From an uncultured Dehalococcoidaceae bacterium (lineage in GTDB: Bacteria; Chloroflexota; Dehalococcoidia; Dehalococcoidales; RBG-16-60-22): DNA of 64,000 bases. The stretch lies in assembly GCA_964615345.1 (NCBI GenBank), contig CAZTMR010000002.1:17428-81427 (forward strand), in the 5' to 3' direction. How positions within the stretch are numbered: position 1 is the first letter of the stretch; each line of letters begins with the position of its first letter. Positions 34,694 through 45,940 of this stretch are shown here, in pieces. Below the pieces are notes generated by a model. The model made no database searches and was not told the origin of the DNA. It worked only from the letters and a program-made list of their open reading frames with translations. The position numbers and the translations under genes were made by a program.

Positions 34694-34697
34694 GGAT

Positions 34698-36458
34698 ATG
34701 AACAGCGAAAAGACCACCCGCCAGATCCTGGAAGAAAAGGCCGAACCGGGAGAGCGTATCCCTCTCTACAACCCGGAAGCGCTCAAGAAAATGGCCGGGG
34801 AATTAGAACGCTGGAAAAATAACGTGGTCAGGGAGCAGGACCGCCAGAACTGGACGTCAACTCCCCGTACCATCCTCGGTTCGGAAATCCCGCGGGAACT
34901 GCTCTACACCCCGCTCAATAACGCCGGGCTGGACTACCGGAAGGACCTGGGTTTCTCCGGAGAGGAGCCCTACACCCGCGGCATCCATCCCAATATGTAC
35001 CGTGGCCGCACCTTTACCATGCGCCAGCTCTTCGGCGCCGGCTCCCCGGAGCAGTGCAACCAGCGGATGAGAAACCTGCTGGAACACGGCGCCACCGGCA
35101 CCAACTGGGCGCTGGACCTGGCCACGGTGCAGATGTTTGACTCTGACGAGCCGGAAGCCAGGGGGCAGGTAGCCACGGTGGGGGTTCCCATCGATTGCGT
35201 GGAGGATATGGAGGTAATCTGCCGCGATATCCCCATTGATAAGGTCAGCGCCTCCATCGTCACCCACTACCCGCGGAATACCGCCATCACTTTCCCGATG
35301 TACCTGGTAATGGCGGAGCGCCGCGGCATCCCCTGGGAGCAGCTTGCCGGCAGCGTGCAGAACGATTTTATTATGGAAAGCCTGGTGCGCAGCGCTTCCG
35401 AATATATCCCGCCGCGGGACGACTTCCGCATCCAGTGCGACAACATCGAGTTTATCCGCCGGCACGTACCCAGATGGAACTACGTTACCCTGAACGGCTA
35501 CAACCTGCGGGAATGGGGCACTTCCGGCGTCACCGAGATGGCCGTGGCCTTGGCCAACGGCATCGCCATCCTGGAGGAGATGTCCCGCCGGGGCCACGAC
35601 ATCGACTGGGTGGCGGAGCGGCTGGCTTTCTTCTGGGCGCCGGCCAATGACTTCTTCGAAGAGGTAGCCCGCATCCGGGCGGTGAGAAGGCTGTGGTACA
35701 AGATAATGAAATACCGCTTCGAGGCGAAAAAGCCACGCTCGATGTGGATGCGCTGCCACGTGCAGACCTCCGGCGTCTCCCTGACCCGGGAGGAGCCGAT
35801 GAACAACGTGATACGTGCCGCCTACCACGCCCTGGCCGCCGTGCTCGGCGGGGCGCAGTCCCTGCACGTGGACTCGTACGATGAGGCCTACTCCGTCCCT
35901 TCCGAAGAAGCCTCCCTGCTCTCCCTGCGCACCCAGCAGATAATCGAGGCGGAGACCCAGGTCACCCAGGTGGTCGACCCCCTCGGCGGCTCTTTCTACG
36001 TGGAAGCGCTGACCGAGGAAATCGAAAAAAGAATTCTGGGCGAGGTGGACGAAATCGAGCGGCGGGGCGGCATCGTGGAGGTGGTGGCCAGCGGCTGGCT
36101 GCACCAGAAGGTCGTCCGGCACATAGAGCGCGAGCAGAGAATGATCGAGAGCGGCGAAATCAAGGTGGTGGGACGCAACTACCACCGCGACCCCAACCTG
36201 GAGATGCCCGATGTCCGGGTGCACGAGTACGATGAAAGCATCGCCCGGGAGATGGGGGAGAAACTGGCGAAGCTGAGAGAGCGGCGGGATAACGATAAGG
36301 TAAACCGGAGTCTGGCTGCGCTCAAAGAAGCCTGCCAGCGCGGCGACAACGTCATGGAGTACACCCTGGAATGCGCCCGGGCGGACGCCACCGAGGGCGA
36401 AATGCGCCGGGCCTTTATCGAGGCTTTCGGCTCCTGGAAGCCGCCGATCTACGTTTAG
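34698..36458 (+). CDS. Coenzyme-B12 acyl-CoA mutase, large (substrate/TIM-barrel) subunit; specificity unassigned
   Basis: By eye it aligns with methylmalonyl-CoA mutase: 'FTMRQLFGAG', 'ALDLATVQMFDSD', 'AGSVQNDFIMESLVRS', 'TLNGYNLREWG', 'HVQTSGVSLT', 'SLHVDSYDEA'. It has no fused B12 domain. Confidence 0.85.
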   Translation: MNSEKTTRQILEEKAEPGERIPLYNPEALKKMAGELERWKNNVVREQDRQNWTSTPRTILGSEIPRELLYTPLNNAGLDYRKDLGFSGEEPYTRGIHPNMYRGRTFTMRQLFGAGSPEQCNQRMRNLLEHGATGTNWALDLATVQMFDSDEPEARGQVATVGVPIDCVEDMEVICRDIPIDKVSASIVTHYPRNTAITFPMYLVMAERRGIPWEQLAGSVQNDFIMESLVRSASEYIPPRDDFRIQCDNIEFIRRHVPRWNYVTLNGYNLREWGTSGVTEMAVALANGIAILEEMSRRGHDIDWVAERLAFFWAPANDFFEEVARIRAVRRLWYKIMKYRFEAKKPRSMWMRCHVQTSGVSLTREEPMNNVIRAAYHALAAVLGGAQSLHVDSYDEAYSVPSEEASLLSLRTQQIIEAETQVTQVVDPLGGSFYVEALTEEIEKRILGEVDEIERRGGIVEVVASGWLHQKVVRHIEREQRMIESGEIKVVGRNYHRDPNLEMPDVRVHEYDESIAREMGEKLAKLRERRDNDKVNRSLAALKEACQRGDNVMEYTLECARADATEGEMRRAFIEAFGSWKPPIYV

Positions 36459-36478
36459 AAGCGAGAGGTCAAGACAAA

Positions 36479-36913
36479 ATGGCGCAGAAAAAGAGTAAAG
36501 TAAAGGTGCTCCTGGCCCAGTTCCCCCTGGAAGCGCACAACCGGGGTGTCATCACCGTGGCCGGCATGCTCAAAGATGCCGGTATGGAGGTGGTGCTCAT
36601 CGGCAACGAGTTGCCGGAGCGGATAATCGATTCCGCCATCCAGGAAGACGCGGATGTCATCGGCGTGAGCACCTACTGCGGCGGCGAGCTGGCCCTGGGT
36701 GCCGACCTTATGGCGAGCGCGGAAGAAAAGGGCATCAGGGACAGCGCCGTTTTCCTGCTCGGGGGTATCTTCCCGCCGGGGAACCGGGACAAGCTGAAAA
36801 AACTGGGCTTCAGCGGCGTTTTCCTCTCCGCCGAGCGCGACGAAATAGTCGCCTGCATCGAGGCAGCCCTGACGGAAAAGCGGGCGGCCGCTCAGTCTCC
36901 GGGCGCCTCGTAG
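36479..36913 (+). CDS. Acyl-CoA mutase small subunit (B12-binding Rossmann domain)
   Basis: 'KVLLAQFPLEAHNRGVITVAGMLKDAGMEVVLIG...DADVIGVSTYCGG...VFLLGGIFP' shows the B12-binding fold, with ExHxxG in place of DxHxxG. Start set at ATG 36479. Confidence 0.8.
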   Translation: MAQKKSKVKVLLAQFPLEAHNRGVITVAGMLKDAGMEVVLIGNELPERIIDSAIQEDADVIGVSTYCGGELALGADLMASAEEKGIRDSAVFLLGGIFPPGNRDKLKKLGFSGVFLSAERDEIVACIEAALTEKRAAAQSPGAS

Positions 36914-37329
36914 AGCCGGACCACCGTCTCCCCTTCCACCACCAGCTTACCGTCCTGATTGGCGCAGGTGGTCCTGGCGGTGACGATTCCCTTGTCCTTG
37001 CGCACGCCGATTACCTCGACCGTGGCGGTTACGGTATCCCCTATTTTCACCGGCCGGAGAAACCGGCTGGAATGGGAAAGCAGGATAACCAGACCGGGAA
37101 GCCCGGCGGCGGCCGCCGAGATGAGCGATATGGCGATAACTCCGTGGGCAATTCGCCCGCCGAACGGCGTCTTCCGGGCGAACTCCTCGTCCAGGTGCAC
37201 CGGGTTATGGTCCCCGGAGACTTCAGCAAACTGGCTAATGTCTTTCTCCGTAATCGTCTTGCGGTGCGTGGTGGTATAACCGATGTCCACGCCCAGCCTG
37301 TCCAAGATGGATGGCTCGTTTTCGGTCAC
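36892..37329 (-). CDS. MaoC-like (R)-specific enoyl-CoA hydratase / hot-dog fold
   Basis: 'FAEVSGDHNPVHLDEEFARKTPFGGRIAHGV' (hydratase 2 motif). Confidence 0.85.
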   Translation of the reverse strand: MTENEPSILDRLGVDIGYTTTHRKTITEKDISQFAEVSGDHNPVHLDEEFARKTPFGGRIAHGVIAISLISAAAAGLPGLVILLSHSSRFLRPVKIGDTVTATVEVIGVRKDKGIVTARTTCANQDGKLVVEGETVVRLYEAPGD

Positions 37330-37350: not shown

Positions 37351-38139
37351 TTAATCATCCGGCACTTCCACTGATTCCCCGGCCATAATAGCCGCGCCCA
37401 GGGCGGTAACTATCTGGGGATGGGGCGGCAGCAGCAGCCTGACTCCCAGTCTTTCTTCCACCGCCCGGATAAGCCCGGTGTCCAGGCCACCGCCCCCGCT
37501 CAGGGCGCAGTCAGCCTCCAACCCCACCTTGTCCGCCAGGGCGGAAATCTTGTCCGCCAGCGCCCGGTGCACCCCGGCCAGGATGTCTTCCCGGGCGGCG
37601 CCCTCCGCCACCCGGGAGACGGCTTCCGATTCGCCGAAAACGGCGCAGCCAGTACTGAAGGCGACCGGGCTTTTTGCTTTCAGGGAAAGCGGGCCGATAT
37701 CTTTCAACTCTACCTGGAGAACGTTAGCGATTACTTCCATAAAGCGGCCGCTGCCGGCGGCGCACTTCTCGCTGACGGCAAACCCGGTCACCCGGCCGCT
37801 TCCGCCAACTTTTATCACCTGGCTGGATTGCGCCTGCACGTCGATTACCGTCCGCGCCGAAGGAAAGATGCTGTGGACACCCCGCGCGCAGCAACGGATA
37901 TCAGTGCCTCTTCCGGCCGGGAAAGGGATGTTGCCGGAACCCTGCCCGGTGGCCACCGCCGCAGCGATATCCAGCGCCGACAGCCCCATCTTGTCCAGCA
38001 GTTCTGCGCGCAGTCTGCCGGCGGCCTCTTTATAGTTCACCCCGGAAGGCAGCACGTGGCAGGCCAGGAGTTCCCCGTCCCCGATGACCACCCCCTTGCT
38101 CGTTCTCGAACCGATATCAATGCCCAGGTAATAAGCCAT
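37351..38139 (-). CDS. BcrD/BadG/HgdC-type ATPase (electron-activating subunit), copy 2
   Basis: 'YLGIDIGSRTSKGVV' (ASKHA phosphate 1); cluster-ligand cysteines 'EKCAAGSGRF' and 'STGCAVFGESE'. Confidence 0.85.
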   Translation of the reverse strand: MAYYLGIDIGSRTSKGVVIGDGELLACHVLPSGVNYKEAAGRLRAELLDKMGLSALDIAAAVATGQGSGNIPFPAGRGTDIRCCARGVHSIFPSARTVIDVQAQSSQVIKVGGSGRVTGFAVSEKCAAGSGRFMEVIANVLQVELKDIGPLSLKAKSPVAFSTGCAVFGESEAVSRVAEGAAREDILAGVHRALADKISALADKVGLEADCALSGGGGLDTGLIRAVEERLGVRLLLPPHPQIVTALGAAIMAGESVEVPDD

Positions 38140-38145
38140 TCCGCT

Positions 38146-39039
38146 TCACTCCGGCTGGAAAAAGGTCGCCTCCCCCAGCTCCCGCTCTTTCCTGGCAACC
38201 GTTTCCCCCCTGGCCAGCGCTTTCCGGACAATGTCTTTCCCCATCAGGGCTGCCCCCAGCGCGCCGCTTATCAGCGGGTCTTCCGGCACAAGGACTTCCC
38301 GGCCCAGGTTCTCCCGGACCGCCCTGACCACGCCACTGTTTTTAGCCACCCCGCCGGTAAACACCACCTCCGGCTCCACTTTCAGCTGCCGCAGCATGCC
38401 GACCGCCCGGCTGGCGATGGCGTGGTGCAGTCCGGCCACAATGTCTGCCACCGGAACGCCTTCAGTAAGACGGGCGGTGACTTCTTGCTCGGCAAAGACG
38501 GTGCAGGTATTGCTGATGCTGGCGCGGCGGGTAGATTGCAGAGAGATACTGCCCAGTTCTCCCAGCTCCAGCCCCAGTGTCCGGGCGATGACCTCCAGGA
38601 ACCGTCCGGTCCCGGCGGCGCACTTGTCATTCATCACGAAGTTAACCAGCTTGCCGCCCTGCAGCTTCATCCCTTTGGCGTCCTGCCCGCCGATGTCCAG
38701 CGCCGTCTTCACCCCGGGAAAAAGGCTGGCTATTCCCCGCGCGTGGCAGGTCAGCTCCGTTATCTGGCGGTCGGCAAAGGGCACGCTTATGCGGCCGTAG
38801 CCGGTGGCCACCACGCAAGCGATGTCCGGGAAGGGCAGTCCGGCGAGGGCCAGCGCCTCCTCCATAACCTTATTGGCCAGGCGGCGGTGCTCGGCGCCGG
38901 TATGACTTTCCACGCGGGAGAACACCCGCTCTCCGGCATCAATAATTACCACCTTCGTCATCGTCGAACCGAGGTCGATACCGGCAAAATAGAGTGGCTC
39001 CGCTTTCAATTCAGTCTCTTTCTCTGAAAAAGTTATCAC
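38146..39039 (-). CDS. BcrA/BadF/HgdC-type ATPase (electron-activating subunit), copy 1
   Basis: 'FAGIDLGSTMTKVVI', 'NDKCAAGTGRF', 'SNTCTVFAEQE'; adjacent to a second, clearly different paralogue. Confidence 0.85.
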   Translation of the reverse strand: MITFSEKETELKAEPLYFAGIDLGSTMTKVVIIDAGERVFSRVESHTGAEHRRLANKVMEEALALAGLPFPDIACVVATGYGRISVPFADRQITELTCHARGIASLFPGVKTALDIGGQDAKGMKLQGGKLVNFVMNDKCAAGTGRFLEVIARTLGLELGELGSISLQSTRRASISNTCTVFAEQEVTARLTEGVPVADIVAGLHHAIASRAVGMLRQLKVEPEVVFTGGVAKNSGVVRAVRENLGREVLVPEDPLISGALGAALMGKDIVRKALARGETVARKERELGEATFFQPE

Positions 39040-39073
39040 GCAGTATACCGCAAGGAAAGCTCCAGCCGACCGG

Positions 39074-40237
39074 TCAGCCGATTATCTCCAGGAATGCCTG
39101 CACCCTCGTCCGCAGCTGTGCCAGGGCTGCCTTGCTGTAATCGTGCTCCAGGTAAATGGACGGCAGCCCGATGTTCTCCAGATAGTCCTTCAGCGCCGGC
39201 ACTTCGTAGCCGTGGATATCACAGTAGCGCAGGGCCTGCAAAATCACCCCGTTGACGTTCCAGTCCCGGGCGTAATCACCCAGGTAGCCAAACCGGTTCT
39301 CCAGGTCTGCCTGATAGTCTTTCTTGCCGTCACTGCCGGGGCCGGTATCACGGAACGTCCGCGGGCTGCGCAGCGCCACCAGGTAGCGGTCGGCCAGCCC
39401 GTCCAGCGGGTCGTCGGTAGCTTCCACCAGCGGGAAATAGTCCCGGCTGCCTATGGTGGTATCATCCATGACCACGTTCCCGCCCAGGCTTTCCACCAGG
39501 TCAACCAGCGCCGTGTTATCGATAATGCTTCCCCACGTCATCAGCCGCGCCCCGGCCTGTGCCGGGCCGTCTCTGCGCTCCCTGACTTCAGTGATGACCT
39601 GCTCCAGAAGCCCGTTTGCCTCGGCGGCCGGCAGGCTGGCCACGGCCACCATCACCCGCACCGTTTCCACCCCGGATATCCGCGGCGGGTCAGGCTTCCT
39701 CAGATCGTACAGTTCCCGCACCAGGGAACGCTGCCGGTTATGAGTGTCCACCGCCTGCCGCAGCCTGGCCGCGGTGAGCTCCTGCCCGGTGAGGTTTTCC
39801 AGGGTACGCTTGAAATCTTCCAGCAGCACCCGGTGCTGCTGCCGGGCCGCCCGGTGGGTGGTATGCGGCGTATCAATAAAGTGAGTGTAAGCCGGTTCCA
39901 GGGACATCCGCCAGATATGGGTGGTCTTTTCGCTCACCTCGCAGCCGTGGGCAAAGACCACCCCGTCCAGAAAGTCATACTTTCCTTTCAGCCCCAGGTC
40001 CATGACACTGCGCAGGAAGGGGCAGACCACGGTGGGCAGGCAGGCGTCCGCCCGGGTGATTGTCTCGTTGATATCTCCCAGCAGGCGGTACGGCACCAGG
40101 TCGAGTGCCGTGAGCATTTCTACCACCGGGTAAATGTCCAGGTAGCCGATAACCTTTTTCCCTTCCGCCTTTAGCTCTTCAGCCCGGGCCGCCCGGCGGT
40201 CATAAATCTCTTTTACCCGTTTCAGTCCCGTGGTCAT
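39074..40237 (-). CDS. 2-hydroxyacyl-CoA dehydratase / benzoyl-CoA reductase family catalytic subunit (BcrC/HgdB-like)
   Basis: 387 aa; family-typical N-terminus 'KVIGYLDIYPVVEMLTALDLVPYRL' and conserved Cys 'LPTVVCPFLRS', 'AHGCE', 'LRYCD'. Its start overlaps the upstream subunit's stop. Confidence 0.8.
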   Translation of the reverse strand: MTTGLKRVKEIYDRRAARAEELKAEGKKVIGYLDIYPVVEMLTALDLVPYRLLGDINETITRADACLPTVVCPFLRSVMDLGLKGKYDFLDGVVFAHGCEVSEKTTHIWRMSLEPAYTHFIDTPHTTHRAARQQHRVLLEDFKRTLENLTGQELTAARLRQAVDTHNRQRSLVRELYDLRKPDPPRISGVETVRVMVAVASLPAAEANGLLEQVITEVRERRDGPAQAGARLMTWGSIIDNTALVDLVESLGGNVVMDDTTIGSRDYFPLVEATDDPLDGLADRYLVALRSPRTFRDTGPGSDGKKDYQADLENRFGYLGDYARDWNVNGVILQALRYCDIHGYEVPALKDYLENIGLPSIYLEHDYSKAALAQLRTRVQAFLEIIG

Positions 40238-41586
40238 TACCAGTCGAACCCCGCTTTTTTTCTTACTTCCCGGTAGTGGTTCATCGTCTCCTCGAACGTC
40301 TCCGCCCGGCGCAGGGCGTCCGCCGGGTCGAACAGGTTAAGGTCTACGATGTCCCCTTCCACGACCAGGGAAGGCACCTTAAACTGCTCCATAAGCTGGT
40401 TCTGCACCATCGTCAGGTGGTTGGTGGCGGTGCGGCAGGTGAGCAGCGGGTGCAGCAGTATCCCATCGCATCGGTACTCTCTGACCATTTCAAGATAGGG
40501 ATGGGCGAAATATCCCCACCAGTCCCCGGCCCGGAAAGCATCTTCAAAGTAGCCGGAAAAATACTGGTAGGTCAGCCCGGCGATGCGCTCCAGGGGGTCG
40601 CCGATTCCGCTCAGGTCCACCGGCTTCGGCGGGTGGTAAGCCCAGCTTTCGGTGACGAAGTTCCAGCCCCGCTCCGCAAGCTGGTTGAAAAACTTCAGGC
40701 TGTGCCACGGCGGCAGCTCGGCGAAGGCAAGCCGGAACTTCTCCTCCGGCACCGCCCCGGCGCCACTGTCCACCATTGCCTTCACTTCATCGTACATATC
40801 CCGGTACAGCCCGGCGGTTATCTCCGGGTCGGACGCCATATACAGGGAAGCCGGCATACTGCTCCAGAAGTCCCGCGAGTGCATCGGGCAGGGGCTCGCC
40901 TTGCGCAGCTCGTTCACCTCATACCATACCCGGTTCATCTCGATGGTATCGTCGACGACCTTCCCGAGGCGGTCCCAGTCCATTTTCCGGCCGAGCAGTT
41001 CTTCCAGGAACCGGACGAACTCTTTCAGTTCCGCCACCAGGAAGCGAATGTTATGCTCGCGGTTACCCTCGAGGCGGCTTTCCGGAACGCCGGGATGAGG
41101 CATCTCCAGCACCCAGACCGGCGCATCCAGATAACGTCCCAGCGCCTGGAACCACTTGTAGCGGGTGTCACAGAAATAGCCGGAGCCGAGCAGCAGTGTG
41201 GGCGGGGGCATGCCGCCCATCGGGGCTTCCGGAGGGATTTCCCCCAGCTCCTTCATCCGCGCCGCGTAGCCCAGGCAATTCCGGGCGTAGCCGCACATAT
41301 GAGTGGGGAAACCGTCCGAATCGGAGTAAGCCAGGTAGTCCGGCGCGGCGCCGAAGGCAGCACAGACCGCGCCGTAGTCTTCCGGGTAAATGGCGGCCAC
41401 GTCCATAGCCCGGAGCACGGCGTCACCACCCCACCAGTTGACCATGCACCAGGCCACCGGTTTCCCTTCCCGGCGGGCGGCTACCGCCTGCTGGTACGTC
41501 CCGTCCACCAGCGCCCGCAGCGGATACATCGTTTTCAGCCGGTTGATGGCTCTCCTGCTCTTCTCTTCGGACACGGTATCTACCAT
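40237..41586 (-). CDS. 2-hydroxyacyl-CoA dehydratase / benzoyl-CoA reductase family catalytic subunit (BcrB/HgdA-like)
   Basis: 449 aa; 'GKPVAWCMVNWWGGDAVLRAMDVAAIYPEDY', 'PTHMCGYARN', 'GYFCDT', 'HPLLTCR'. Confidence 0.8.
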   Translation of the reverse strand: MVDTVSEEKSRRAINRLKTMYPLRALVDGTYQQAVAARREGKPVAWCMVNWWGGDAVLRAMDVAAIYPEDYGAVCAAFGAAPDYLAYSDSDGFPTHMCGYARNCLGYAARMKELGEIPPEAPMGGMPPPTLLLGSGYFCDTRYKWFQALGRYLDAPVWVLEMPHPGVPESRLEGNREHNIRFLVAELKEFVRFLEELLGRKMDWDRLGKVVDDTIEMNRVWYEVNELRKASPCPMHSRDFWSSMPASLYMASDPEITAGLYRDMYDEVKAMVDSGAGAVPEEKFRLAFAELPPWHSLKFFNQLAERGWNFVTESWAYHPPKPVDLSGIGDPLERIAGLTYQYFSGYFEDAFRAGDWWGYFAHPYLEMVREYRCDGILLHPLLTCRTATNHLTMVQNQLMEQFKVPSLVVEGDIVDLNLFDPADALRRAETFEETMNHYREVRKKAGFDW

Positions 41587-41664: not shown

Positions 41665-42081
41665 TCAGTCCAGCAAGCGGAAAAGGGGGCGGGCGCTCTC
41701 CCCGGCGGAATAACGGTCACCGGAGAACACTTTGCTGCCGTCTATCTTTACCTTTTTCCCGATGAGCCCCATATCGGCGGCCGCCGGGTCGGTACCCGTA
41801 AGGTTTCCCATCACCCAGGGGCCCTCGTTCATCTCCACCAGCAGAATCACGTAAGGAGCTTCGTCTTCGCGCCCCTCCGCGGCCACATTATTGCTGGTAA
41901 AGGTCTGGATGCGGCCTTCTCCGACAAGCTCGGTTATTTCCATATCGGTCCCGCCGCAGCCGCGGCAGACCATTTTGGGAGGCGTGGTGACCACCCCGCA
42001 CTGGGGACACTTCAGACCCAGCAGCCGGTTTTCTTTGAGTGCCTCGTTATATTCCTTGAAAGTCAGCCTGTATTCCATCAT
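41665..42081 (-). CDS. DUF35 OB-fold / rubredoxin-like zinc-ribbon protein (thiolase partner)
   Basis: 'LLGLKCPQCGVVTTPPKMVCRGCGG' followed by an OB-fold segment; directly downstream of the thiolase. Confidence 0.85.
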   Translation of the reverse strand: MMEYRLTFKEYNEALKENRLLGLKCPQCGVVTTPPKMVCRGCGGTDMEITELVGEGRIQTFTSNNVAAEGREDEAPYVILLVEMNEGPWVMGNLTGTDPAAADMGLIGKKVKIDGSKVFSGDRYSAGESARPLFRLLD

Positions 42082-42111: not shown

Positions 42112-43290
42112 CTACCAGCCGCGCTGCAGAATCATATTCACCAGCGTGCCGCCGTCTCCGCCCAGGGTATCGGTCATGCCAGTCCGGGCGCCTTCCACCA
42201 TCCGTTCCGGCTCCACCTCGCCGCGCAGCTGTTTGGTCACCTCGTAGACCTGTCCGGCCCCGGTGGCGCCGATGGGGTGCCCCTTGGACTTCAGTCCGCC
42301 GGACGCGTTAATGGCTACCTTACCGCCGATTGCCGCCTCGCCTTTCTCCCAGGCCTCGCCCGATTTACCGTATTCGAAGAAGCCGAGCCCTTCGGCGGCA
42401 ATCAGGCTGGCGATACTGAAACAGTCGTGCAGTTCGCAAAAGTCGATGTCCGCCGGCTTCACCCCGGCCATCTCGTAGGCGCGCTGAGCGGACAGCTCCC
42501 GCGCTTTCAGCCGGGGCAGATAGTCACCCTGGCTGACCAGAGGTCCGGAGGAAGCCTGCCCCACCCCGGTGATAAAGACCGGCTTATCAGTCAGCTTGCG
42601 CGCGTTTTCCTCCGTGGTGAGCACCAGAGCGGCCGCGCCATCCGAAAACGGGCAGCAGTCATGGAGCTGGAGCGGCGTGCTCACCATAAACGACTTGAGC
42701 ACCGCCGGCACGTCCACCTCTTTCCGCAGGTGCGCCTTGGGATTGTGCACCCCGTAGCGGTAGGACTGCACGGATACCGCCGCCATCTGTTCCTTGAGCT
42801 TCTCCAGGGGGATGCCGTATTTCGCCGCGTAGAGGTGGGCGAGCATGGCGAACAGGGCGGGAAAGGTAATCCCCGCCGGATACTCATAACGGCTGTCACT
42901 GAACATGGCAAAGGTGCGCGTGGCCAGAGCGGTACCCATGGTAGCCGCCCTTTCCACCCCGCCGGTCAGCACCACATCGTAAAAGCCGGAGGCAACCCAC
43001 ATAAAAGCATCCCGCACCGCCATACTTGCCGAGGCACAGGCGCCCTCGTAACGGTTGGCCGGAACATTGTAGCAGCCGATGTTTTCGGCGGCGAAAGCCT
43101 GCACCATCCCCTGCCCTTCGGAAAAGTCTCCCAGGACGTTGCCCAGGAACAGGGCCTGCATATCTTTCGGTTTCAGGTTGGATCCGCTTATAGCTTCCAT
43201 GGCCGCTTCAGCAAACAGCTCCACGCTGGTCTTTTCCTGGGCCGCCCCGAATTTGGTTTCACCCACGCCGACGACAGCTACTTTTCTCAT
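42112..43290 (-). CDS. Thiolase (SCP-x / BbsB-like, non-acetoacetyl type)
   Basis: 'MRKVAVVGVGETKFG', active-site 'YEGACASASMAV', 'CELHDCFS', 'NASGGLKSKGHPIGATG'. ATG 43290 has a GGAGGAGG SD. Confidence 0.85.
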   Translation of the reverse strand: MRKVAVVGVGETKFGAAQEKTSVELFAEAAMEAISGSNLKPKDMQALFLGNVLGDFSEGQGMVQAFAAENIGCYNVPANRYEGACASASMAVRDAFMWVASGFYDVVLTGGVERAATMGTALATRTFAMFSDSRYEYPAGITFPALFAMLAHLYAAKYGIPLEKLKEQMAAVSVQSYRYGVHNPKAHLRKEVDVPAVLKSFMVSTPLQLHDCCPFSDGAAALVLTTEENARKLTDKPVFITGVGQASSGPLVSQGDYLPRLKARELSAQRAYEMAGVKPADIDFCELHDCFSIASLIAAEGLGFFEYGKSGEAWEKGEAAIGGKVAINASGGLKSKGHPIGATGAGQVYEVTKQLRGEVEPERMVEGARTGMTDTLGGDGGTLVNMILQRGW

Positions 43291-43351
43291 CTGAAATACC
43301 TCCTCCAAAGGTTATTGACCAATACCAAGTTACTATATTCTGCCATTGCCG

Positions 43352-45409
43352 TCAATTTGCCAGCAGCTCGGCGATATCCATCACTTTTACCTTCTCTTCC
43401 ACTTCTTCCAGCTTGAGCCCGTCCTCGAACATCTGCAGGCAGTAGGGACAGGCGGTAGCCACCGTTCCGGCGTTCACCGCCATCGCCTGCTCCGCCCTCA
43501 TTTCGTTAATGCGCCGCCCTCTCTTCTGCTCTTCCAGCCAGAGGTGCCCCCCGCCCGCTCCGCAGCAGAAACCGCGCTCCCGGTTCTTTTCCATCTCCGC
43601 CAGTTTGACACCGGGCATACTGCCCAGCAACCGGCGCGGCGCATCGTAAATATCGTTGTATCGGCCCAGGTAGCAGGAGTCATGGTAGGTCACCACCCCC
43701 CCGGCAATACCTTTTCCGGCTTCCAGCCTGCCCTCCTGCATCAGGTCGGCAATAAACCCGGTGTGATGACTGACCTCGAAGTTCCCGCCGAATTGCGGGT
43801 ACTCGTGCTTCAGGGTGTTGAAACAGTGCGGACAGCCGGTGACAATATTCTTCACGCCGTAGTTCTTAAGCAGGTCAATGTTCGTCTCCGCCTGGATTTG
43901 AAAGAGGTACTCGTTGCCCAGCCGGCGGGCGGGGTCGCCGCAGCAGGTCTCTTCTACACCCAGTATGCCGAAGTTTACCCCCGCCTCCGCCAGCAGCCGG
44001 GCAATCGCCCGTGCCACCCGCGTGCTGCGCTCTTCCAGTGCTTCCGTACAGCCCACCCAGAACAATACATCTACATCACCCGCATCGGCTAAAGTCTTTA
44101 TCTCCAGCCCTTCCGTCCAGTCAGTCCGGGCCAGCGTGGTGCCGCGCCACGGATGCCCCCGCGCCTCGATGCTTTTCAGCGCTCCTTCGCCGGTCTCCGG
44201 AATGGACGCCCGTTCCATCACCAGGCTCCGCCTCATCTCCACTACCTTGGTCATCGGCTCGATGCTCACCGGACAGGCCTGGTGGCAGGCAAAGCAGGCG
44301 GTGCAGTTCCAGATCTCGTCTTCGCCGATTACTTCGCCGGGCAGCGCCCGCTCGGCCGCCTCTCCGTTTCCCCTGAGCAGCGCCGGCGCCCGCTCCAGCC
44401 AGTTCCCTTTCAGGTCCTGAATGATTTTCTTCGGGCTTAAGGGTTTGCCGCTGAGGTAGGCGGGACAGCTGTCCTGGCAGCGCCCGCACCGGGTGCAGGC
44501 GTCCAGGTCAAGCAGGTGCTTCCAGGCAAAGTCTTCAATTCTGGACGCCCCGAAGCTCTCCGCAACCTCCAGGTCGATTGGCACCAGTACTCCCTTCGGC
44601 TCCAGCGATTTGAAATAAACGTTCACCGTGGAGACGATGATATGCCACAGGCGGTTCCAGTACAGGGATACGTAAATAATGGCCCCGATGGAGAGGAGGG
44701 AATGCAGCCACCAGGTAACCCGGTGTCCGGCGAGCAGGCCGGCCTGGCTGAGTCCGCTCAACCCCCGCGCCAGGACGTAGCCGCCGGGCGACCACGGCGC
44801 CCAGCCCGGGTTGGTCTGCAGCTCAGTGGCGGCGATGCGGAAACCCTCCACGATGAATCCGGTAAGCACCACCGTGAAAATGAGCAGCAGGGCCACCAGG
44901 TCCTCGGTCTTACTGTCCAGCCGTTCCGGCCTCTGCCCGTAGCGGCGGTGCACCGCCAGTATCACCGCGATAAGCACCAGGACGCCGAAAACGTCCACCA
45001 CCGCCGAGTAAGCGAGGTAAACTCCGCCTTCCAGGAAGTGAAAGAAGTAATGGCTGACGGCGTCCAGGAAAGAGGCCAGCAAGAATATAATGCATCCGGC
45101 GAAAATCAGGAAATGGATGACACCGGGATAAAACTCCCGGGCGCGCAGGTCTCCGGCGGAAAAGCGCCGGTGGCTCAGGCCGTCAGCGATGCCAACGAAG
45201 CGGCGGTGGGTGAGCAAATCGATGACGCTGACGGCAAAGGCGCGTATTCTCTGCCAGGAGAAGGCGACGCGGCTGTCCGTCCGGCCCACCCGCCACAGCC
45301 TCACGCGCCGGTACAGCGCGTAAACAAAAACGCCGAGAGCGATTACCCCCAGCGCGTAGATGACTTCACCGTACCGGATGTTCCAGAAAATCTCTCGCGA
45401 TGCTTCCAT
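43352..45409 (-). CDS. Membrane-bound Fe-S oxidoreductase: NarI/DsrM-like N-terminal membrane domain fused to an HdrD/DsrK-like (2x[4Fe-4S] + CCG) domain
   Basis: 5-6 N-terminal TM helices with conserved His. Ferredoxin motifs 'CTRCGRCQDSCP' and 'CTACFACHQACP'. CCG motifs 'ETCCGDP' and 'GFCCGAGGG'. Confidence 0.8.
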   Translation of the reverse strand: MEASREIFWNIRYGEVIYALGVIALGVFVYALYRRVRLWRVGRTDSRVAFSWQRIRAFAVSVIDLLTHRRFVGIADGLSHRRFSAGDLRAREFYPGVIHFLIFAGCIIFLLASFLDAVSHYFFHFLEGGVYLAYSAVVDVFGVLVLIAVILAVHRRYGQRPERLDSKTEDLVALLLIFTVVLTGFIVEGFRIAATELQTNPGWAPWSPGGYVLARGLSGLSQAGLLAGHRVTWWLHSLLSIGAIIYVSLYWNRLWHIIVSTVNVYFKSLEPKGVLVPIDLEVAESFGASRIEDFAWKHLLDLDACTRCGRCQDSCPAYLSGKPLSPKKIIQDLKGNWLERAPALLRGNGEAAERALPGEVIGEDEIWNCTACFACHQACPVSIEPMTKVVEMRRSLVMERASIPETGEGALKSIEARGHPWRGTTLARTDWTEGLEIKTLADAGDVDVLFWVGCTEALEERSTRVARAIARLLAEAGVNFGILGVEETCCGDPARRLGNEYLFQIQAETNIDLLKNYGVKNIVTGCPHCFNTLKHEYPQFGGNFEVSHHTGFIADLMQEGRLEAGKGIAGGVVTYHDSCYLGRYNDIYDAPRRLLGSMPGVKLAEMEKNRERGFCCGAGGGHLWLEEQKRGRRINEMRAEQAMAVNAGTVATACPYCLQMFEDGLKLEEVEEKVKVMDIAELLAN

Positions 45410-45445
45410 ATCAGCGCTCCATCTCTCCGGCTTTTCCCCGCTCTT

Positions 45446-45940
45446 TTAACGGAGACGGGTCACGGCGACGTATATGCCCAGCCCCACCGCCAGCAGGTCA
45501 AGGACGATCCGGAACACGCCGAAAGGTATCCCCCCGAACCAAATGCCAAACCCAATGCTCACCAGATAGCTCAGCGCCACTCCCAGGCTGGCCACCGCTG
45601 CCAACCCTCGGCCGCGCTTGCGGTTAACCGCCAGTCCCACCACTTCAGCGATGGCGTAACCGACGGCCGGCCCAAGCAGGATACTGAAGAAAAAGAAGGG
45701 AATGACCCCACGCAGCACCCCCCACAGAACCCCGGTCGCCGCTGCCATCCCCAGTGCGGTGCCAACCGCTCTCAAATAATAAGGCAGGGGAACGCGGTAG
45801 GTGGGCAGCTTGTAGAGCCGGGCACACTGCGGGCACCTGGCCCCCACCGGCGTCTGCACCATGCACCTAGGGCAGATAGGTTTGCCGCACTTGCCGCAGC
45901 GCAGGTTGGTTTCCACCTCAGGATGAGCCGCGCATTTCAT
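45446..45940 (-). CDS. B-box-type zinc-finger membrane protein
   Basis: 'CAAHPEVETNLRCGKCGKPICPRCMVQTPVGARCPQC' followed by 4 TM helices. Confidence 0.65.
   Translation of the reverse strand: MKCAAHPEVETNLRCGKCGKPICPRCMVQTPVGARCPQCARLYKLPTYRVPLPYYLRAVGTALGMAAATGVLWGVLRGVIPFFFFSILLGPAVGYAIAEVVGLAVNRKRGRGLAAVASLGVALSYLVSIGFGIWFGGIPFGVFRIVLDLLAVGLGIYVAVTRLR

What the first reader, a model, noticed from the sequence alone, without database searches (positions are those of the whole stretch)
37351..41586. Four-subunit ATP-dependent radical enzyme of the benzoyl-CoA reductase / 2-hydroxyacyl-CoA dehydratase family with two distinct ATPase subunits
Seen: four tightly packed genes encode 449 aa + 387 aa catalytic-type subunits with conserved Cys, and then two different ASKHA ATPases (297 and 262 aa). 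Each ATPase has both cluster-ligand cysteines (CAAG(T/S)GRF and C(T/A)VF(A/G)E). Established: dehydratase activators (HgdC/HadI type) are homodimers from one gene. Class I benzoyl-CoA reductases (BcrCBAD/BzdNOPQ/BadDEFG) use a heterodimer of two paralogous ATPases encoded next to the two catalytic subunits. Inference: this is a BCR-like ATP-driven reductase or dehydratase with unknown substrate. The gene order (B-like, C-like, A-like, D-like) and the short 297-aa 'A' subunit differ from the Thauera and Azoarcus types as I remember them.
Basis: partly seen in the sequence, partly recalled or inferred. Interest (0 to 1): 0.6.

Follow-up and report, generated by a model that had tools for sequence, protein, structure and literature searches.

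The report
Benzoyl-CoA-reductase-like enzyme, not for benzoate
Four adjacent genes encode an ATP-powered iron-sulfur radical enzyme built like a benzoyl-CoA reductase, but its active site, gene neighbours and relatives suggest it works on small branched hydroxy-acyl-CoA compounds, and it appears to match proteins of unknown role that sulfate-reducing bacteria switch on when growing on acetone.

Summary
The four minus-strand genes are real: two HGD-D catalytic-type subunits (449 and 387 aa) and two different BcrAD_BadFG ATPases (297 and 262 aa, 38% identical).

The architecture is benzoyl-CoA-reductase-like (O-, N- and Q-type subunits plus a second ATPase lineage). No subunit reaches any curated Bcr, Bzd, Had or double-cubane cutoff.

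Three features stand out:
- The substrate subunit carries an invariant C-D-x-R motif; BzdO's catalytic His131 is Arg.
- In this window the N-like subunit has lost three of the six double-cubane cysteines that most relatives keep.
- The 262-aa ATPase has degenerate nucleotide motifs in every member examined.

The family spans Dehalococcoidia, Firmicutes, Syntrophaceae, Desulfobacteraceae and Bathyarchaeota. It always lies among thiolase, hydratase or dehydrogenase genes, often with an unusual B12 mutase. Distant members sit beside 2-hydroxyacyl-CoA-lyase-type TPP enzymes and formyl-CoA-transferase-like genes. No ring-pathway genes occur.

Gene content matches the acetone-induced, functionally unassigned "BCR subunits" of Desulfococcus biacutus and Desulfotomaculum arcticum.

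Best reading: not a benzoyl-CoA reductase, but an ATP-primed ketyl-radical enzyme acting on a short branched 2-hydroxyacyl-CoA, of the 2-hydroxyisobutyryl-CoA/methacrylyl-CoA type. The substrate is inferred, not shown.

The parts
40237..41586 (-). alpha (substrate-binding, BzdO/MbdO/HadB-like) HGD-D subunit, 449 aa. It has three cluster Cys (C98, C139, C384) and the invariant family signature N50-W51-W52, E69, Y100, C139-D140-x-R142, L291, W294, Y317, R385.
   Evidence: Pfam HGD-D E 8e-50. Below all equivalog cutoffs. PDB hits: MbdO 1.7e-23, HadB 6e-23, BzdO 1e-19. Signature conserved down to 37-50% identity.
39074..40237 (-). beta (BzdN/HadC-like) HGD-D subunit, 387 aa. It keeps C72, C99 and C339 but has lost the three distal double-cubane ligands (D34, T261, and Ser in the 'RSPRTF' loop).
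   Evidence: Pfam HGD-D E 1e-75. Best PDB hit BzdN, 2.7e-48. Family-wide ligand table.
38146..39039 (-). ATPase A1, 297 aa. A Q/alpha-type BCR ATPase with canonical DxGST, DIGGQD and GGVAKN motifs, both cluster Cys, and a conserved C-terminal tail (...RKER.L.EATFF).
   Evidence: Pfam BcrAD_BadFG E 3e-64. PDB scores: MbdQ 251 bits, HadI 250 bits. Groups with MbdQ at bootstrap 94. Tail conservation.
37351..38139 (-). ATPase A2, 262 aa. A diverged paralogue that keeps both cluster Cys but has degenerate nucleotide motifs (DVQAQS for DIGGQD, GSR for GST, GGGGLD for GGVAKN). It is probably a structural, cluster-bridging partner with an impaired ATP site.
   Evidence: Pfam E 6e-43. 38% identical to A1. 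Own clade at bootstrap 94, not with MbdP. Motif degenerate in all 23 family members plus L039 and L040.
36892..37329 (-). MaoC-type (R)-specific enoyl-CoA hydratase, 145 aa, last gene of the operon.
   Evidence: Pfam MaoC_dehydratas E 2e-25. Co-located in most Chloroflexota loci and in Firmicute locus L030.
41665..42081 (-). DUF35 (ChsH2 zinc-ribbon plus OB fold) partner of the thiolase, 138 aa.
   Evidence: Pfam hits. Always paired with the thiolase, including in L022, L032 and L040.
42112..43308 (-). SCP-x/archaeal-type thiolase, 398 aa. It is the most conserved gene of the block.
   Evidence: Pfam thiolase domains. NCBIfam PRK06064 398 bits, archaeal acetoacetyl-CoA thiolase model 375 bits. 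66-93% identity across loci.
43352..45409 (-). HdrD/TfrB-like Fe-S oxidoreductase, 685 aa (two CCG domains, a 4Fe-4S dicluster, and a QmoC-like membrane N-terminus). It is a variable accessory, possibly an electron outlet for the acyl-CoA dehydrogenase.
   Evidence: Pfam and NCBIfam hits. Present in many but not all Chloroflexota loci.
45446..45940 (-). Conserved 164-aa zinc-ribbon protein with about four transmembrane helices, adjacent to the HdrD-like gene. Function unknown.
   Evidence: Sequence. Only a weak B-box hit. Co-conserved with the HdrD-like gene.
36371..36913 (+). B12-binding small subunit of the acyl-CoA mutase (convergent operon; its end overlaps the MaoC gene end).
   Evidence: Pfam B12-binding E 2e-16. 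NCBIfam acid_CoA_mut_C.
34683..36458 (+). Acyl-CoA mutase large subunit, 591 aa, of a distinct subfamily: Leu at MCM Tyr89, Ala at HcmA Asp117, Arg kept at MCM Arg207, Asn at MCM His244.
   Evidence: Pfam MM_CoA_mutase E 2.5e-162. PDB scores: HcmA 394 bits, MCM 346 bits. Signature conserved in all co-located mutases, including Syntrophaceae and Firmicutes.
33548..34693 (+). Acyl-CoA dehydrogenase, 381 aa, Bcd/AcrC-like.
   Evidence: Pfam ACAD domains. NCBIfam best hit is the acryloyl-CoA reductase AcrC model, 511 bits, below the 640 cutoff.
32483..33532 (+). MeaB-type G-protein chaperone of the mutase, 349 aa.
   Evidence: Pfam MeaB E 5.5e-83. NCBIfam TIGR00750 316 bits, above the 241 cutoff.
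31701..32486 (+). Sir2-family deacylase, 261 aa, first gene of the convergent operon. In L003 an AMP-forming acyl-CoA ligase takes this position.
   Evidence: Pfam SIR2 E 9e-51. L001 and L003 gene tables.

Best explanation
SHOWN. The four genes encode a complex of the benzoyl-CoA reductase / 2-hydroxyacyl-CoA dehydratase superfamily with BCR-type architecture. The alpha subunit (O/B-type) has a three-Cys [4Fe-4S] site. The beta subunit (N/C-type) in this organism has only the three ligands of a single cubane, whereas most relatives keep all six double-cubane ligands. The ATPase pair consists of a canonical Q-type subunit (A1) and a conserved paralogue (A2) with degenerate nucleotide-binding motifs. 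It is not a benzoyl-CoA reductase orthologue. It belongs to a cross-phylum family that is consistently embedded in short-chain acyl-CoA metabolism, and whose gene content matches the ketone-induced, unassigned 'BCR subunits' of acetone-degrading sulfate reducers.

INFERRED MECHANISM. Reduced ferredoxin or flavodoxin reduces the [4Fe-4S] cluster bridging A1 and A2. ATP binding and hydrolysis, mainly at A1, drives that electron through the beta cluster to the alpha cluster. There a thioester ketyl radical is formed on a small acyl-CoA bound next to Glu69, Asp140 and Arg142.

INFERRED REACTION. The most likely reaction is removal or addition of the alpha-hydroxyl of a short, branched 2-hydroxyacyl-CoA. 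The leading candidate is 2-hydroxyisobutyryl-CoA <-> methacrylyl-CoA. An alternative is 2-hydroxybutyryl-CoA <-> crotonyl-CoA. The enzyme would work at the same metabolic node as the co-encoded B12 mutase (branched 2-hydroxy <-> linear 3-hydroxy acyl-CoA). Together with the acyl-CoA dehydrogenase, the MaoC hydratase and the thiolase/DUF35 pair, a branched C4/C5 unit would then be interconverted with acetoacetyl-CoA and acetyl-CoA.
For: Family and architecture.

Not an aromatic reductase. All Bcr and Bzd equivalog scores are far below cutoff. BzdO's catalytic His131 is an invariant Arg, and the thioester ligand Gln274 is Leu. There is no dch/had/oah, ferredoxin or benzoate-CoA ligase in the 64-kb window or in the neighbours scanned at seven related loci.

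Pathway linkage. The alpha-beta-A1-A2 core travels with thiolase/DUF35, MaoC and mutase/MeaB in Chloroflexota. It also does so, in different gene orders, in Syntrophaceae (L022), Firmicutes (L030) and Desulfobacterium (L032). Other loci carry a classical thiolase, 3HCDH and crotonase.

Link to 2-hydroxyacyl-CoA chemistry. In L039 (same C-D-x-R motif and same A1/A2 pair) the enzyme sits next to several relevant genes. One is a TPP enzyme whose best solved relatives are oxalyl-CoA decarboxylases and 2-hydroxyacyl-CoA lyase/synthases. The others are a formyl-CoA-transferase-like CoA-transferase, a formyltransferase and an HMGL-like protein. L028 has a Frc-like CoA-transferase and a TPP enzyme.

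Experimental literature. 'Two BCR/HGD subunits' are specifically induced by acetone, butanone, pentanones and isopropanol in four sulfate reducers and have no assigned role. The D. arcticum cluster holds the TDP enzyme, an HMGL-like protein, DUF35, a thiolase, the two BCR-like genes, a 3-hydroxybutyryl-CoA dehydratase and the B12 mutase (PMC8084838). D. biacutus cluster B has the same gene order as L031 (PMC4103992). 2-Hydroxyisobutyryl-CoA is the established intermediate of that pathway (PMC7888143).

The ACAD's best model is acryloyl-CoA reductase, the partner of lactyl-CoA dehydratase. The window's beta subunit has the HadC-like three-Cys pattern.
Against: No biochemical test exists; substrate and reaction type rest on gene context.

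Several features are reductase-like. Most relatives keep the six BzdN double-cubane Cys together with Arg53, Arg267 and His330. A1 groups with MbdQ. The two ATPase genes are usually co-encoded one-to-one, and a half-degenerate ATPase would make most sense if ATP were used stoichiometrically.

Known dehydratase activators are homodimers from one gene.

The co-encoded mutase lacks HcmA's Asp117 and has Asn for His244 while keeping the carboxylate-binding Arg. Its assignment to 2-hydroxyisobutyryl-CoA is therefore unproven, and a dicarboxylic substrate is possible.

The window has no TPP enzyme, HMGL-like protein, CoA-transferase or 2-hydroxyacid dehydrogenase.

A 2-hydroxyisobutyryl-CoA dehydratase has no obvious place in the accepted acetone pathway.
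Confidence: 0.4

Rival explanations
1. It is a net ATP-coupled two-electron reductase of a non-aromatic acyl-CoA. An example would be reductive removal of the alpha-hydroxyl, converting 2-hydroxyisobutyryl-CoA to isobutyryl-CoA. The cluster chain would deliver two energised electrons per turnover, as in class I BCR.
For: BCR-type architecture: beta is closest to BzdN, six double-cubane Cys are retained in most family members, A1 groups with MbdQ, and the four genes are usually co-encoded. MbdP, the second ATPase of a real BCR, also lacks the last Asp of DIGGQD. Economising ATP through one degenerate site fits stoichiometric ATP use in energy-limited anaerobes (inference).
Against: No low-potential two-electron reduction is known or obviously needed among C4/C5 acyl-CoAs in this context. 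No ferredoxin or ferredoxin-regenerating genes are linked. The window's own lineage dispensed with the distal cubane while keeping the same synteny. Three loci lack adjacent ATPase genes (L015, L027, L029), which looks more like a trans-acting activator.
Confidence: 0.25
2. It is a true dearomatising or alicyclic acyl-CoA reductase, a divergent class I BCR for benzoyl-CoA, a substituted analogue or a partly reduced ring, as often assumed for 'bcr' genes of sediment Dehalococcoidia.
For: Four-subunit BCR layout. Trp52, Tyr100 and Glu69 match BzdO Trp46, Tyr97 and Glu65. The literature treats Dehalococcoidia bcr/bzdQ hits as aromatic-degradation markers. The thiolase/DUF35 pair resembles BbsAB.
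Against: All equivalog scores are 4- to 10-fold below cutoff. His131 is Arg, Gln274 is Leu, and the Leu302 loop is absent. No dch/had/oah, bamA-type hydrolase, ferredoxin or aromatic CoA ligase was found in the window or in the neighbours scanned at seven related loci; for the other ~30 loci only window-type genes were searched. Likely orthologues are induced by aliphatic ketones rather than aromatics. The true Bzd-type clusters of Anaerolineae come with dch/had/oah and bzdM.
Confidence: 0.08
3. It is part of the still-unresolved ketone-activating machinery itself. It would use ATP-energised electrons to make or deliver the activated C1 (formyl) unit, or to activate the TPP-dependent enzyme, rather than transforming the 2-hydroxyacyl-CoA product.
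For: The acetone to 2-hydroxyisobutyryl-CoA step has never been reconstituted and the C1 donor is unknown. The authors suggest the induced BCR-like and HMGL-like proteins form a complex that contributes to activation. L039 places the enzyme directly after a Frc-like CoA-transferase and a formyltransferase, next to the TPP enzyme and an HMGL-like protein. A PF09719 'redox-active' protein, also acetone-induced in D. biacutus, lies between beta and A1 in L040.
Against: In Dehalococcoidia, Syntrophaceae and the Firmicute locus the enzyme occurs without any TPP enzyme nearby, but with the mutase and beta-oxidation genes. There is no precedent in this superfamily for C1 activation. The alpha subunit keeps the acyl-CoA-type active-site scaffold.
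Confidence: 0.1
4. It is a PlsA/PlsR- or Ger-like lipid enzyme that converts ester to (vinyl) ether bonds, suggested by the nearby plsY gene.
For: PlsA-type enzymes belong to the same superfamily and carry one or two BcrAD_BadFG activation domains. plsY lies about 4 kb upstream.
Against: The plsY adjacency is part of a housekeeping recA-recX-rny-ymdB-PHP-plsY block and is lost outside Chloroflexota, whereas the acyl-CoA partners persist. The closest relatives are the CoA-ester enzymes BzdN/O, MbdO and HadB/C. No extra PlsA-type domain was found.
Confidence: 0.02

Closest known systems
BzdNOPQ, Azoarcus/Aromatoleum-type class I benzoyl-CoA reductase (BzdNO structure 8S02; Fuchs et al. 2025, PMC11971306)
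   Same: Four-subunit layout. Beta is the closest solved relative of BzdN (2.7e-48). Most family members keep all six [8Fe-9S] Cys plus Arg53, Arg267 and His330. Alpha keeps the three cluster Cys and the equivalents of Glu65, Trp46 and Tyr97.
   Different: Scores are far below the Bzd equivalog cutoffs. Catalytic His131 is an invariant Arg (the motif C-C-S-H becomes C-D-x-R), and Gln274 is Leu. The window's beta subunit has lost three of the six Cys. Gene order is O-N-Q-P rather than N-O-P-Q. There are no bzd-type ring-pathway or ferredoxin genes.
MbdONQP, 3-methylbenzoyl-CoA reductase (structures 9G87 and 9GAI)
   Same: Same subunit order as implied by the name. A1 groups with MbdQ (bootstrap 94). 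MbdN, like the window's beta, has only three Cys. MbdP, like A2, lacks the terminal Asp of DIGGQD, so an asymmetric ATPase pair has a precedent.
   Different: Alpha and beta are only distantly related to MbdO and MbdN (1.7e-23 and 1.5e-19). A2 is not an MbdP orthologue and is much more degenerate. The active-site motif is C-N-T-F in MbdO.
HadBC plus HadI, (R)-2-hydroxyisocaproyl-CoA dehydratase and activator (3O3M, 4EHT), and relatives HgdAB/HgdC
   Same: The window enzyme has the Had-like cofactor prediction of one three-Cys [4Fe-4S] per catalytic subunit. Both ATPases score about as well against HadI as against MbdQ. The context (ACAD of the AcrC/Bcd type, family III CoA-transferase in distant loci, a 2-hydroxyacyl-CoA-forming TPP enzyme) fits a 2-hydroxyacyl-CoA substrate.
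   Different: There are two diverged ATPase genes instead of one homodimeric activator. The ancestral beta subunit has double-cubane ligands. The motif is C-N-Q-V in HadB. Scores are far below the Had equivalog cutoffs. No 2-hydroxyacid dehydrogenase is linked.
[quoted passage not shown]
   Same: Gene order of D. biacutus cluster B (thiolase, 3HCDH, ECH, Zn-ADH, BCR-like) equals that of L031, a 51%-identical homologue. The D. arcticum cluster contains the same gene types as the window (DUF35, thiolase, two BCR-like genes, a hydroxybutyryl-CoA dehydratase, B12 mutase subunits). The PF09719 partner recurs in L040.
   Different: The window lacks the TDP-dependent enzyme, the HMGL-like protein and the Zn-ADH. 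Its beta subunit has lost the distal cubane ligands. Sequence-level orthology with the published proteins could not be checked.
Double-cubane cluster protein DCCP with DCCP-R (6ENO, 7YYL)
   Same: Beta scores as high against the NCBIfam double-cubane model (185 bits) as against BzdN. Relatives keep the six Cys.
   Different: DCCP is built from one HGD-D gene plus a homodimeric ATPase and reduces small molecules. Here there are two different HGD-D subunits with a CoA-ester-type alpha subunit, and the score is well below the 350 cutoff.

Membership tests
Class I benzoyl-CoA reductase (Bcr/Bzd/Mbd) | Two HGD-D-type subunits plus two different ASKHA ATPases with cluster-bridging Cys, encoded together | tested here: met
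Class I benzoyl-CoA reductase (Bcr/Bzd/Mbd) | Each subunit reaches the curated equivalog score (BcrA-D, BzdN/O/Q) | tested here: not met
   Alpha: 83 against a cutoff of 449 (BzdO) and 47 against 487 (BcrB). Beta: 183 against 454 (BzdN). A1: 175 against 380 (BzdQ). A2: 144 against 380.
Class I benzoyl-CoA reductase (Bcr/Bzd/Mbd) | Active-site [4Fe-4S] held by three Cys in the O/B subunit | tested here: met
   C98, C139 and C384 correspond to BzdO C95, C128 and C380
Class I benzoyl-CoA reductase (Bcr/Bzd/Mbd) | Bzd-type acid/base pair Glu65 plus His131 at the Fe-bound water, and thioester ligands Tyr97, Tyr298 and Gln274 | tested here: not met
   Glu69 and Tyr100 are kept. His131 is Arg142 (invariant in the family), Gln274 is Leu291, and Tyr298 is Trp315 or variable
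Class I benzoyl-CoA reductase (Bcr/Bzd/Mbd) | Bzd-type [8Fe-9S] double cubane: six Cys in the N subunit | tested here: not met
   The window has three of six (C72, C99, C339; D34, T261 and a loop Ser replace the others). Most relatives have six of six. MbdN also has three, so this does not exclude a BCR.
Class I benzoyl-CoA reductase (Bcr/Bzd/Mbd) | ATPase pair orthologous to Q/A and P/D subunits | tested here: inconclusive
   A1 groups with MbdQ (bootstrap 94). A2 forms its own clade and does not join MbdP; deeper nodes are unresolved.
Class I benzoyl-CoA reductase (Bcr/Bzd/Mbd) | Genomic linkage to dienoyl-CoA hydratase/dehydrogenase/ring hydrolase, ferredoxin and an aromatic-acid CoA ligase | tested here: not met
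   None in the window, and none among the neighbours scanned at seven related loci; the tblastn over all loci searched only for window-type genes
Class I benzoyl-CoA reductase (Bcr/Bzd/Mbd) | ATP-stoichiometric reduction of benzoyl-CoA to dienoyl-CoA | not testable with these tools
   Needs an enzyme assay
2-Hydroxyacyl-CoA dehydratase (Had/Hgd/Fld/Lcd) with activator | Alpha-beta heterodimer, one three-Cys [4Fe-4S] in each subunit | tested here: met
   The window has three plus three Cys. Most relatives have six in beta, so this is a derived state here.
2-Hydroxyacyl-CoA dehydratase (Had/Hgd/Fld/Lcd) with activator | Activator is a homodimer from a single gene | tested here: not met
   Two paralogues at 38% identity, each lineage conserved across phyla
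2-Hydroxyacyl-CoA dehydratase (Had/Hgd/Fld/Lcd) with activator | Reaches the HadB/HadC equivalog scores | tested here: not met
   107 against a cutoff of 750, and 127 against 700.
2-Hydroxyacyl-CoA dehydratase (Had/Hgd/Fld/Lcd) with activator | Context supplying and consuming a 2-hydroxyacyl-CoA (CoA-transferase III, 2-hydroxyacid dehydrogenase, enoyl-CoA-reducing ACAD) | tested here: inconclusive
   An AcrC/Bcd-like ACAD is adjacent. A CoA-transferase III and an HACL-type TPP enzyme occur only in distant loci L028 and L039. No 2-hydroxyacid dehydrogenase was seen.
Ketone-induced BCR/HGD-like proteins of sulfate reducers (D. biacutus cluster B type) | Same neighbourhood as published clusters | tested here: met
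   L031 (thiolase, 3HCDH, ECH, Zn-ADH, alpha, beta, A1, A2) matches D. biacutus cluster B. The window's gene types match the D. arcticum cluster.
Ketone-induced BCR/HGD-like proteins of sulfate reducers (D. biacutus cluster B type) | Direct sequence orthology to DebiaDRAFT_04515/16 and Ga0056061_04026/27 | not tested
   These sequences could not be retrieved with the tools. The genome scan found Desulfococcus, Desulfobacterium and Desulfotomaculum MAG homologues at 50-69% identity.
Double-cubane cluster protein (DCCP) | A single HGD-D protein with six Cys, reaching the NCBIfam cutoff | tested here: not met
   Two different HGD-D subunits. Beta scores 185 against a cutoff of 350. Three of six Cys in the window.
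PlsA/PlsR plasmalogen synthase / Ger | PlsA-type domain architecture and lipid-gene linkage | tested here: not met
   Only HGD-D was found. The plsY adjacency is not kept outside Chloroflexota.

The most novel reading that the evidence does not exclude
The family is a new functional class within the BCR/HAD superfamily: an ATP-driven radical (de)hydratase or dehydroxylase for tertiary or short branched 2-hydroxyacyl-CoAs, built on a BCR chassis (ancestral double cubane, half-degenerate heterodimeric ATPase). Together with HACL-type TPP enzymes and an uncharacterised B12 mutase subfamily, it would form an oxygen-independent node linking ketones, formyl-CoA, branched acyl-CoAs and acetyl-CoA. 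In effect that would be an anaerobic counterpart of alpha-oxidation or ketone C1-elongation. It would also be the missing, unexplained component of anaerobic acetone metabolism in sulfate reducers, and a core trait of subsurface Dehalococcoidia and Bathyarchaeia.
Probability: 0.22. Interest if true: 0.85.

Novelty: new variant of a known kind. Interest (0 to 1): 0.66.

Why it matters
1. Surveys of anoxic sediments routinely count bcr/bzdQ hits in Dehalococcoidia as evidence for aromatic-compound degradation. This widespread, syntenic Dehalococcoidia cluster fails the sequence, active-site and context criteria for a benzoyl-CoA reductase, so such inferences may be wrong for it. I could not confirm that the genes counted in those surveys are this particular cluster.

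2. The pathway of acetone and ketone degradation in sulfate reducers has had unexplained, strongly induced 'BCR subunits' since 2014, and its activation step has never been reconstituted. This analysis defines the full four-subunit enzyme and its conserved partners: the mutase, thiolase/DUF35, a PF09719 protein, an HACL-type TPP enzyme and an Frc-like transferase. It also gives concrete substrates to test.

3. Mechanistically, the family offers a natural experiment on two open questions about ATP-driven electron transfer. One is what the distal cubane of the [8Fe-9S] cluster is for, since it was lost cleanly in one lineage with synteny retained. The other is whether one competent ATP site is enough.

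Tried and rejected
- Exact-sequence look-ups of window proteins failed for the 387-aa subunit and RecA, probably because of start-codon differences. Homologue contigs were used instead.
- I tested whether the partner mutase is a 2-hydroxyisobutyryl-CoA mutase of the HcmA type. This was rejected on signature residues (Ala for Asp117, Asn for His244, Arg kept), so its specificity stays open.
- I tested whether Firmicute locus L030 is the published D. arcticum acetone cluster. It is not: there is no TDP or HMGL gene upstream, only a compact operon.
- I searched the whole window for a TDP enzyme, HMGL-like protein, CoA-transferase, ferredoxin, ETF or ring-pathway genes. None were found; everything else is housekeeping.
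- I tested whether the conserved 164-aa ORF is the PF09719 'redox-active' protein. It is not; it is a zinc-ribbon membrane protein.
- The PlsA/ether-lipid idea, prompted by plsY adjacency, was rejected on synteny and homology.
- Promoter and terminator scans were no better than shuffled sequence.
- Representatives P0122 and P0145 lay on contigs too short or uninformative.
- Structure prediction was not run. The fold is already fixed by strong sequence matches to solved structures, and the tool returns no coordinates for pocket analysis.
- A literature search found no described 2-hydroxyisobutyryl-CoA dehydratase and no paper on the MbdONQP structure.

Full report
**Observation.** The four genes are present exactly as described, on the minus strand: 40237-41586 (449 aa), 39074-40237 (387 aa), 38146-39039 (297 aa, GTG start) and 37351-38139 (262 aa). 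They are tightly packed: alpha and beta overlap by one base, and A1 and A2 are 6 bases apart. Pfam assigns the first two to HGD-D (E 8e-50 and 1e-75) and the last two to BcrAD_BadFG (E 3e-64 and 6e-43). Both ATPases carry both cluster-bridging cysteine motifs. The identical public protein is called at 445 aa on an 82.6-kb NCBI contig with only a generic name. Named close homologues and the genome-scan hits are Chloroflexota/Dehalococcoidia MAGs.

**Which known enzymes it resembles.** No subunit reaches any curated equivalog threshold for BcrA-D, BzdN/O/Q, HadB/C or the double-cubane protein. Matches to solved structures are as follows:

| Subunit | Matches |
|---|---|
| 387-aa (beta) | BzdN 2.7e-48, ahead of HadC, DCCP and MbdN |
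| 449-aa (alpha) | MbdO 1.7e-23, HadB 6e-23, BzdO 1e-19 (roughly equidistant) |
| 297-aa (A1) | MbdQ 251 bits, HadI 250 bits |
| 262-aa (A2) | HadI, then HgdC, then MbdQ; lowest against MbdP |

Solved MbdQ and MbdP are 269 and 273 aa, and the BzdQ profile has 293 positions, so a 297-aa 'A' subunit is normal for this type. A search of 1.84 billion 50%-identity representatives found 159 proteins at E <= 1e-30. All of the best 150 (126 bits or more) are closer to alpha than any solved enzyme.

**Active site of alpha.** The reference is the 1.4-Å BzdNO structure paper (PMC11971306). Alpha keeps the three cluster cysteines (C98, C139, C384) and the equivalents of Glu65, Trp46 and Tyr97. BzdO's catalytic His131 is Arg142, Cys129 is Asp140 and Gln274 is Leu291. 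Across 33 loci, down to 50% identity, the signature is essentially invariant: N50-W51-W52, E69, C98-G-Y100, C139-D140-x-R142, L291, W294, Y317, C384-R385. Among the nearest representatives, C-[DE]-x-R marks one contiguous block of an NJ tree containing the window family. BzdO (C-C-S-H), MbdO (C-N-T-F) and HadB (C-N-Q-V) lie in other blocks.

**Beta subunit, an unexpected result.** BzdN binds an [8Fe-9S] double cubane through six cysteines. The window's beta keeps only three (C72, C99, C339). The others are Asp34, Thr261 and a Ser in the 'RSPRTF' loop. Most family members keep all six, together with the equivalents of Arg53, Arg267 and His330 around the distal sub-cluster. This includes many Dehalococcoidia and the Firmicute, Syntrophaceae, Desulfobacteraceae and Bathyarchaeota homologues. 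Only the window and its closest relatives (L005-L014, L016) show the concerted loss of exactly the three distal ligands. The family is therefore ancestrally Bzd- or DCCP-like in beta. The window's lineage has reverted to a single cubane, as in HadC and MbdN, with synteny unchanged.

**ATPases.** The two are 38% identical. In an NJ tree with 100 bootstraps, the A1 lineage groups with MbdQ (94). The A2 lineage is monophyletic (94) and does not join MbdP. A1 has canonical DxGST, DIGGQD and GGVAKN motifs and a conserved C-terminal tail. In all 23 family members, and in two more distant loci, A2 never has DIGGQD. Variants include DVQAQS, DIGEQS and EVGDRG. A2 usually lacks the P1 Thr and reads GGGG(L/A)D at the adenosine motif, yet it keeps both cluster cysteines. 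MbdP also lacks the final Asp (DIGGQT), so an asymmetric pair has a precedent in a genuine BCR. I infer a heterodimer with one fully competent ATP site; this is not shown.

**Context.** The operon on the same strand is: HdrD-like Fe-S oxidoreductase, SCP-x/archaeal-type thiolase, DUF35, alpha, beta, A1, A2, MaoC hydratase. A second operon converges on it: Sir2, MeaB, acyl-CoA dehydrogenase (closest model acryloyl-CoA reductase AcrC), and the acyl-CoA mutase large and B12-binding subunits. The rest of the 64-kb window is housekeeping. It has no ferredoxin, ETF, ring-pathway genes, TPP enzyme, HMGL-like protein or CoA-transferase. The block is syntenic in Chloroflexota homologues at 58-88% identity.

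The linkage recurs outside the phylum in different arrangements, which argues for function and against inherited order alone:

| Locus | Lineage | Arrangement |
|---|---|---|
| L022 | Syntrophaceae | SDR, crotonase, thiolase, DUF35, alpha, beta, A1, A2, MeaB, mutase, B12-binding, one strand |
| L030 | Firmicutes | alpha, beta, A1, A2, MaoC, MeaB, mutase, B12-binding |
| L031 | Desulfococcus | thiolase, 3HCDH, crotonase, Zn-ADH, alpha, beta, A1, A2 |
| L033 | Desulfobacterium | thiolase, 3HCDH, core, thiolase |
| L028 | Bathyarchaeota | acyl-CoA synthetase, Frc-like CoA-transferase, core, thiolase, 3HCDH, TPP enzyme |

**The co-encoded mutase.** It is a distinct subfamily. It has Leu at MCM Tyr89, Ala at HcmA Asp117 and Asn at MCM His244, and it keeps Arg at MCM Arg207. 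The signature is conserved in every co-located copy. Its substrate cannot be assigned by homology.

[quoted passage not shown] The authors single these proteins out as of special interest and assign them no function (PMC7888143, PMC8084838). The D. arcticum cluster lists the TDP enzyme, an HMGL-like protein, DUF35, a thiolase, ECH, the two BCR-like genes, a '3-hydroxybutyryl-CoA dehydratase' and the two mutase subunits. Those are the same gene types as in the window. D. biacutus 'cluster B' runs thiolase, PF09719 redox protein, 3HCDH, ECH, Zn-ADH and two BCR subunits, which is the order of L031 (PMC4103992). In that pathway 2-hydroxyisobutyryl-CoA is the established intermediate. Its formation from acetone has never been reconstituted and the C1 donor is unknown.

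Two more distant members of the C-D-x-R clade tighten the connection. L039 (alpha 37-39% identical, A2 59%) reads HMGL-like, TPP enzyme, Frc-like CoA-transferase, formyltransferase, beta, alpha, A1, A2. Its TPP enzyme's best solved relatives are oxalyl-CoA decarboxylases and 2-hydroxyacyl-CoA lyase/synthases. L040 and L041 (48-50% identity) read CoA ligase, thiolase, DUF35, SDR, alpha, beta, PF09719, A1, A2.

**Interpretation.** Shown: a BCR-architecture, ATP-dependent Fe-S radical enzyme that is not a benzoyl-CoA reductase orthologue and belongs to a cross-phylum family embedded in short-chain acyl-CoA metabolism.

Inferred: because its recurrent partners make or consume 2-hydroxyacyl-CoAs (HACL-type TPP enzyme, B12 mutase of the 2-hydroxy/3-hydroxy type) and feed thiolysis, the most economical role is ketyl-radical chemistry at C2 of a short branched 2-hydroxyacyl-CoA. 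The leading candidate is 2-hydroxyisobutyryl-CoA <-> methacrylyl-CoA, by analogy to lactyl-CoA dehydratase paired with acryloyl-CoA reductase. An alternative is 2-hydroxybutyryl-CoA <-> crotonyl-CoA, following a mutase step from 3-hydroxyisobutyryl-CoA. Either route lets ACAD, this enzyme, the mutase, MaoC and thiolase/DUF35 interconvert isobutyryl-type units and two acetyl-CoA.

The main rival is a net ATP-stoichiometric reductase, for example a reductive dehydroxylase. It is favoured by the ancestral double cubane, the Q-type ATPase and the half-degenerate ATPase pair. A true dearomatising reductase is unlikely given the active site, the context and the ketone induction. A direct role in ketone or C1 activation cannot be excluded.

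**Limits.** There is no biochemistry. Reference sequences for BcrABCD, BzdPQ, HgdAB, FldBC, LcdAB and tetrahydronaphthoyl-CoA reductase were unavailable. The NJ trees are simple. Orthology with the published acetone-induced proteins rests on synteny and gene content.

Noticed in passing
window 39074-40237 (beta subunit); compare L001, L003, L015, L017-L035: Within one enzyme family, a Dehalococcoidia sub-lineage (the window, L005-L014 and L016) has lost exactly the three Cys ligands of the distal half of the BzdN-type [8Fe-9S] double cubane. The replacements are C34 to D, C261 to T/S/V/A/F, and the loop Cys to S/N. The operon structure is unchanged. L040 shows a partial state (five of six).
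   Followed up: yes
window 34683-36458 (+) and 36371-36913 (+): The co-encoded B12 acyl-CoA mutase is a distinct subfamily. It has RQ[LI]xGAG (Leu/Ile for MCM Tyr89) and ALDL (no HcmA Asp117). It also has VR[SG]A..EY (MCM Arg207 kept) and NGYNLRE (Asn for the catalytic His244). The signature is conserved in Chloroflexota, Syntrophaceae and Firmicutes copies. Substrate unknown.
   Followed up: partly
L040 7865-8404 and L041 7955-8494: A C_GCAxxG_C_C (PF09719) 'putative redox-active protein' is inserted between beta and A1. The same family is a prominent acetone-induced protein (04510) in D. biacutus cluster B. It may be an electron-transfer or accessory partner of this enzyme family. It is absent from the window.
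   Followed up: partly
L039 1-5703: An HMGL-like protein, an HACL/oxalyl-CoA-decarboxylase-type TPP enzyme, a formyl-CoA-transferase-like CoA-transferase and an Fmt-like formyltransferase lie directly upstream of a beta-alpha-A1-A2 set. This looks like a self-contained formyl-CoA/2-hydroxyacyl-CoA module.
   Followed up: partly
L035 1249-3923: Two alpha-subunit genes in tandem (64% and 61% identical to the window's) precede a single beta, A1 and A2. Both copies keep the C-D-x-R signature.
   Followed up: no
L015, L027, L029: These loci have alpha and beta but no adjacent ATPase genes. In L015, MaoC follows beta directly. In L029, two ACAD-like genes follow. The ATPases may be encoded elsewhere.
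   Followed up: no
window 43352-45940 (-): A 685-aa HdrD/TfrB-like protein (two CCG domains, Fe-S dicluster, QmoC-like membrane N-terminus) and a conserved 164-aa zinc-ribbon protein with four transmembrane helices head the operon in many Dehalococcoidia, but not in all (absent in L003). It may be an ETF- or quinone-linked electron outlet.
   Followed up: partly
window 46651-51675 (-): The block recA-recX-rny-ymdB-PHP-plsY lies immediately upstream and is syntenic across Dehalococcoidia loci. L001 has an extra radical SAM/SPASM gene between PHP and plsY that the window lacks.
   Followed up: no
window 11231-11492 (-): A T-box leader (Rfam RF00230, 95 bits) lies upstream of the isoleucyl-tRNA synthetase gene (8088-11234). 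This is ordinary.
   Followed up: no
window 21078-24779 (-): An adjacent HerA-like helicase (536 aa) and NurA-like nuclease (399 aa) form a DNA end-resection pair better known from archaea.
   Followed up: no
L030 13679-15324: The mutase large subunit appears split into two consecutive ORFs (299 and 249 aa) in this Firmicute MAG. This could be a frameshift, an assembly error or a pseudogene.
   Followed up: no
window 59672-61096 (+): A tyrosine recombinase/integrase ORF (XerC/D-like domains at residues 166-449) has a long N-terminal extension that overlaps the UvrC gene end on the other strand. The true start is probably further downstream.
   Followed up: no
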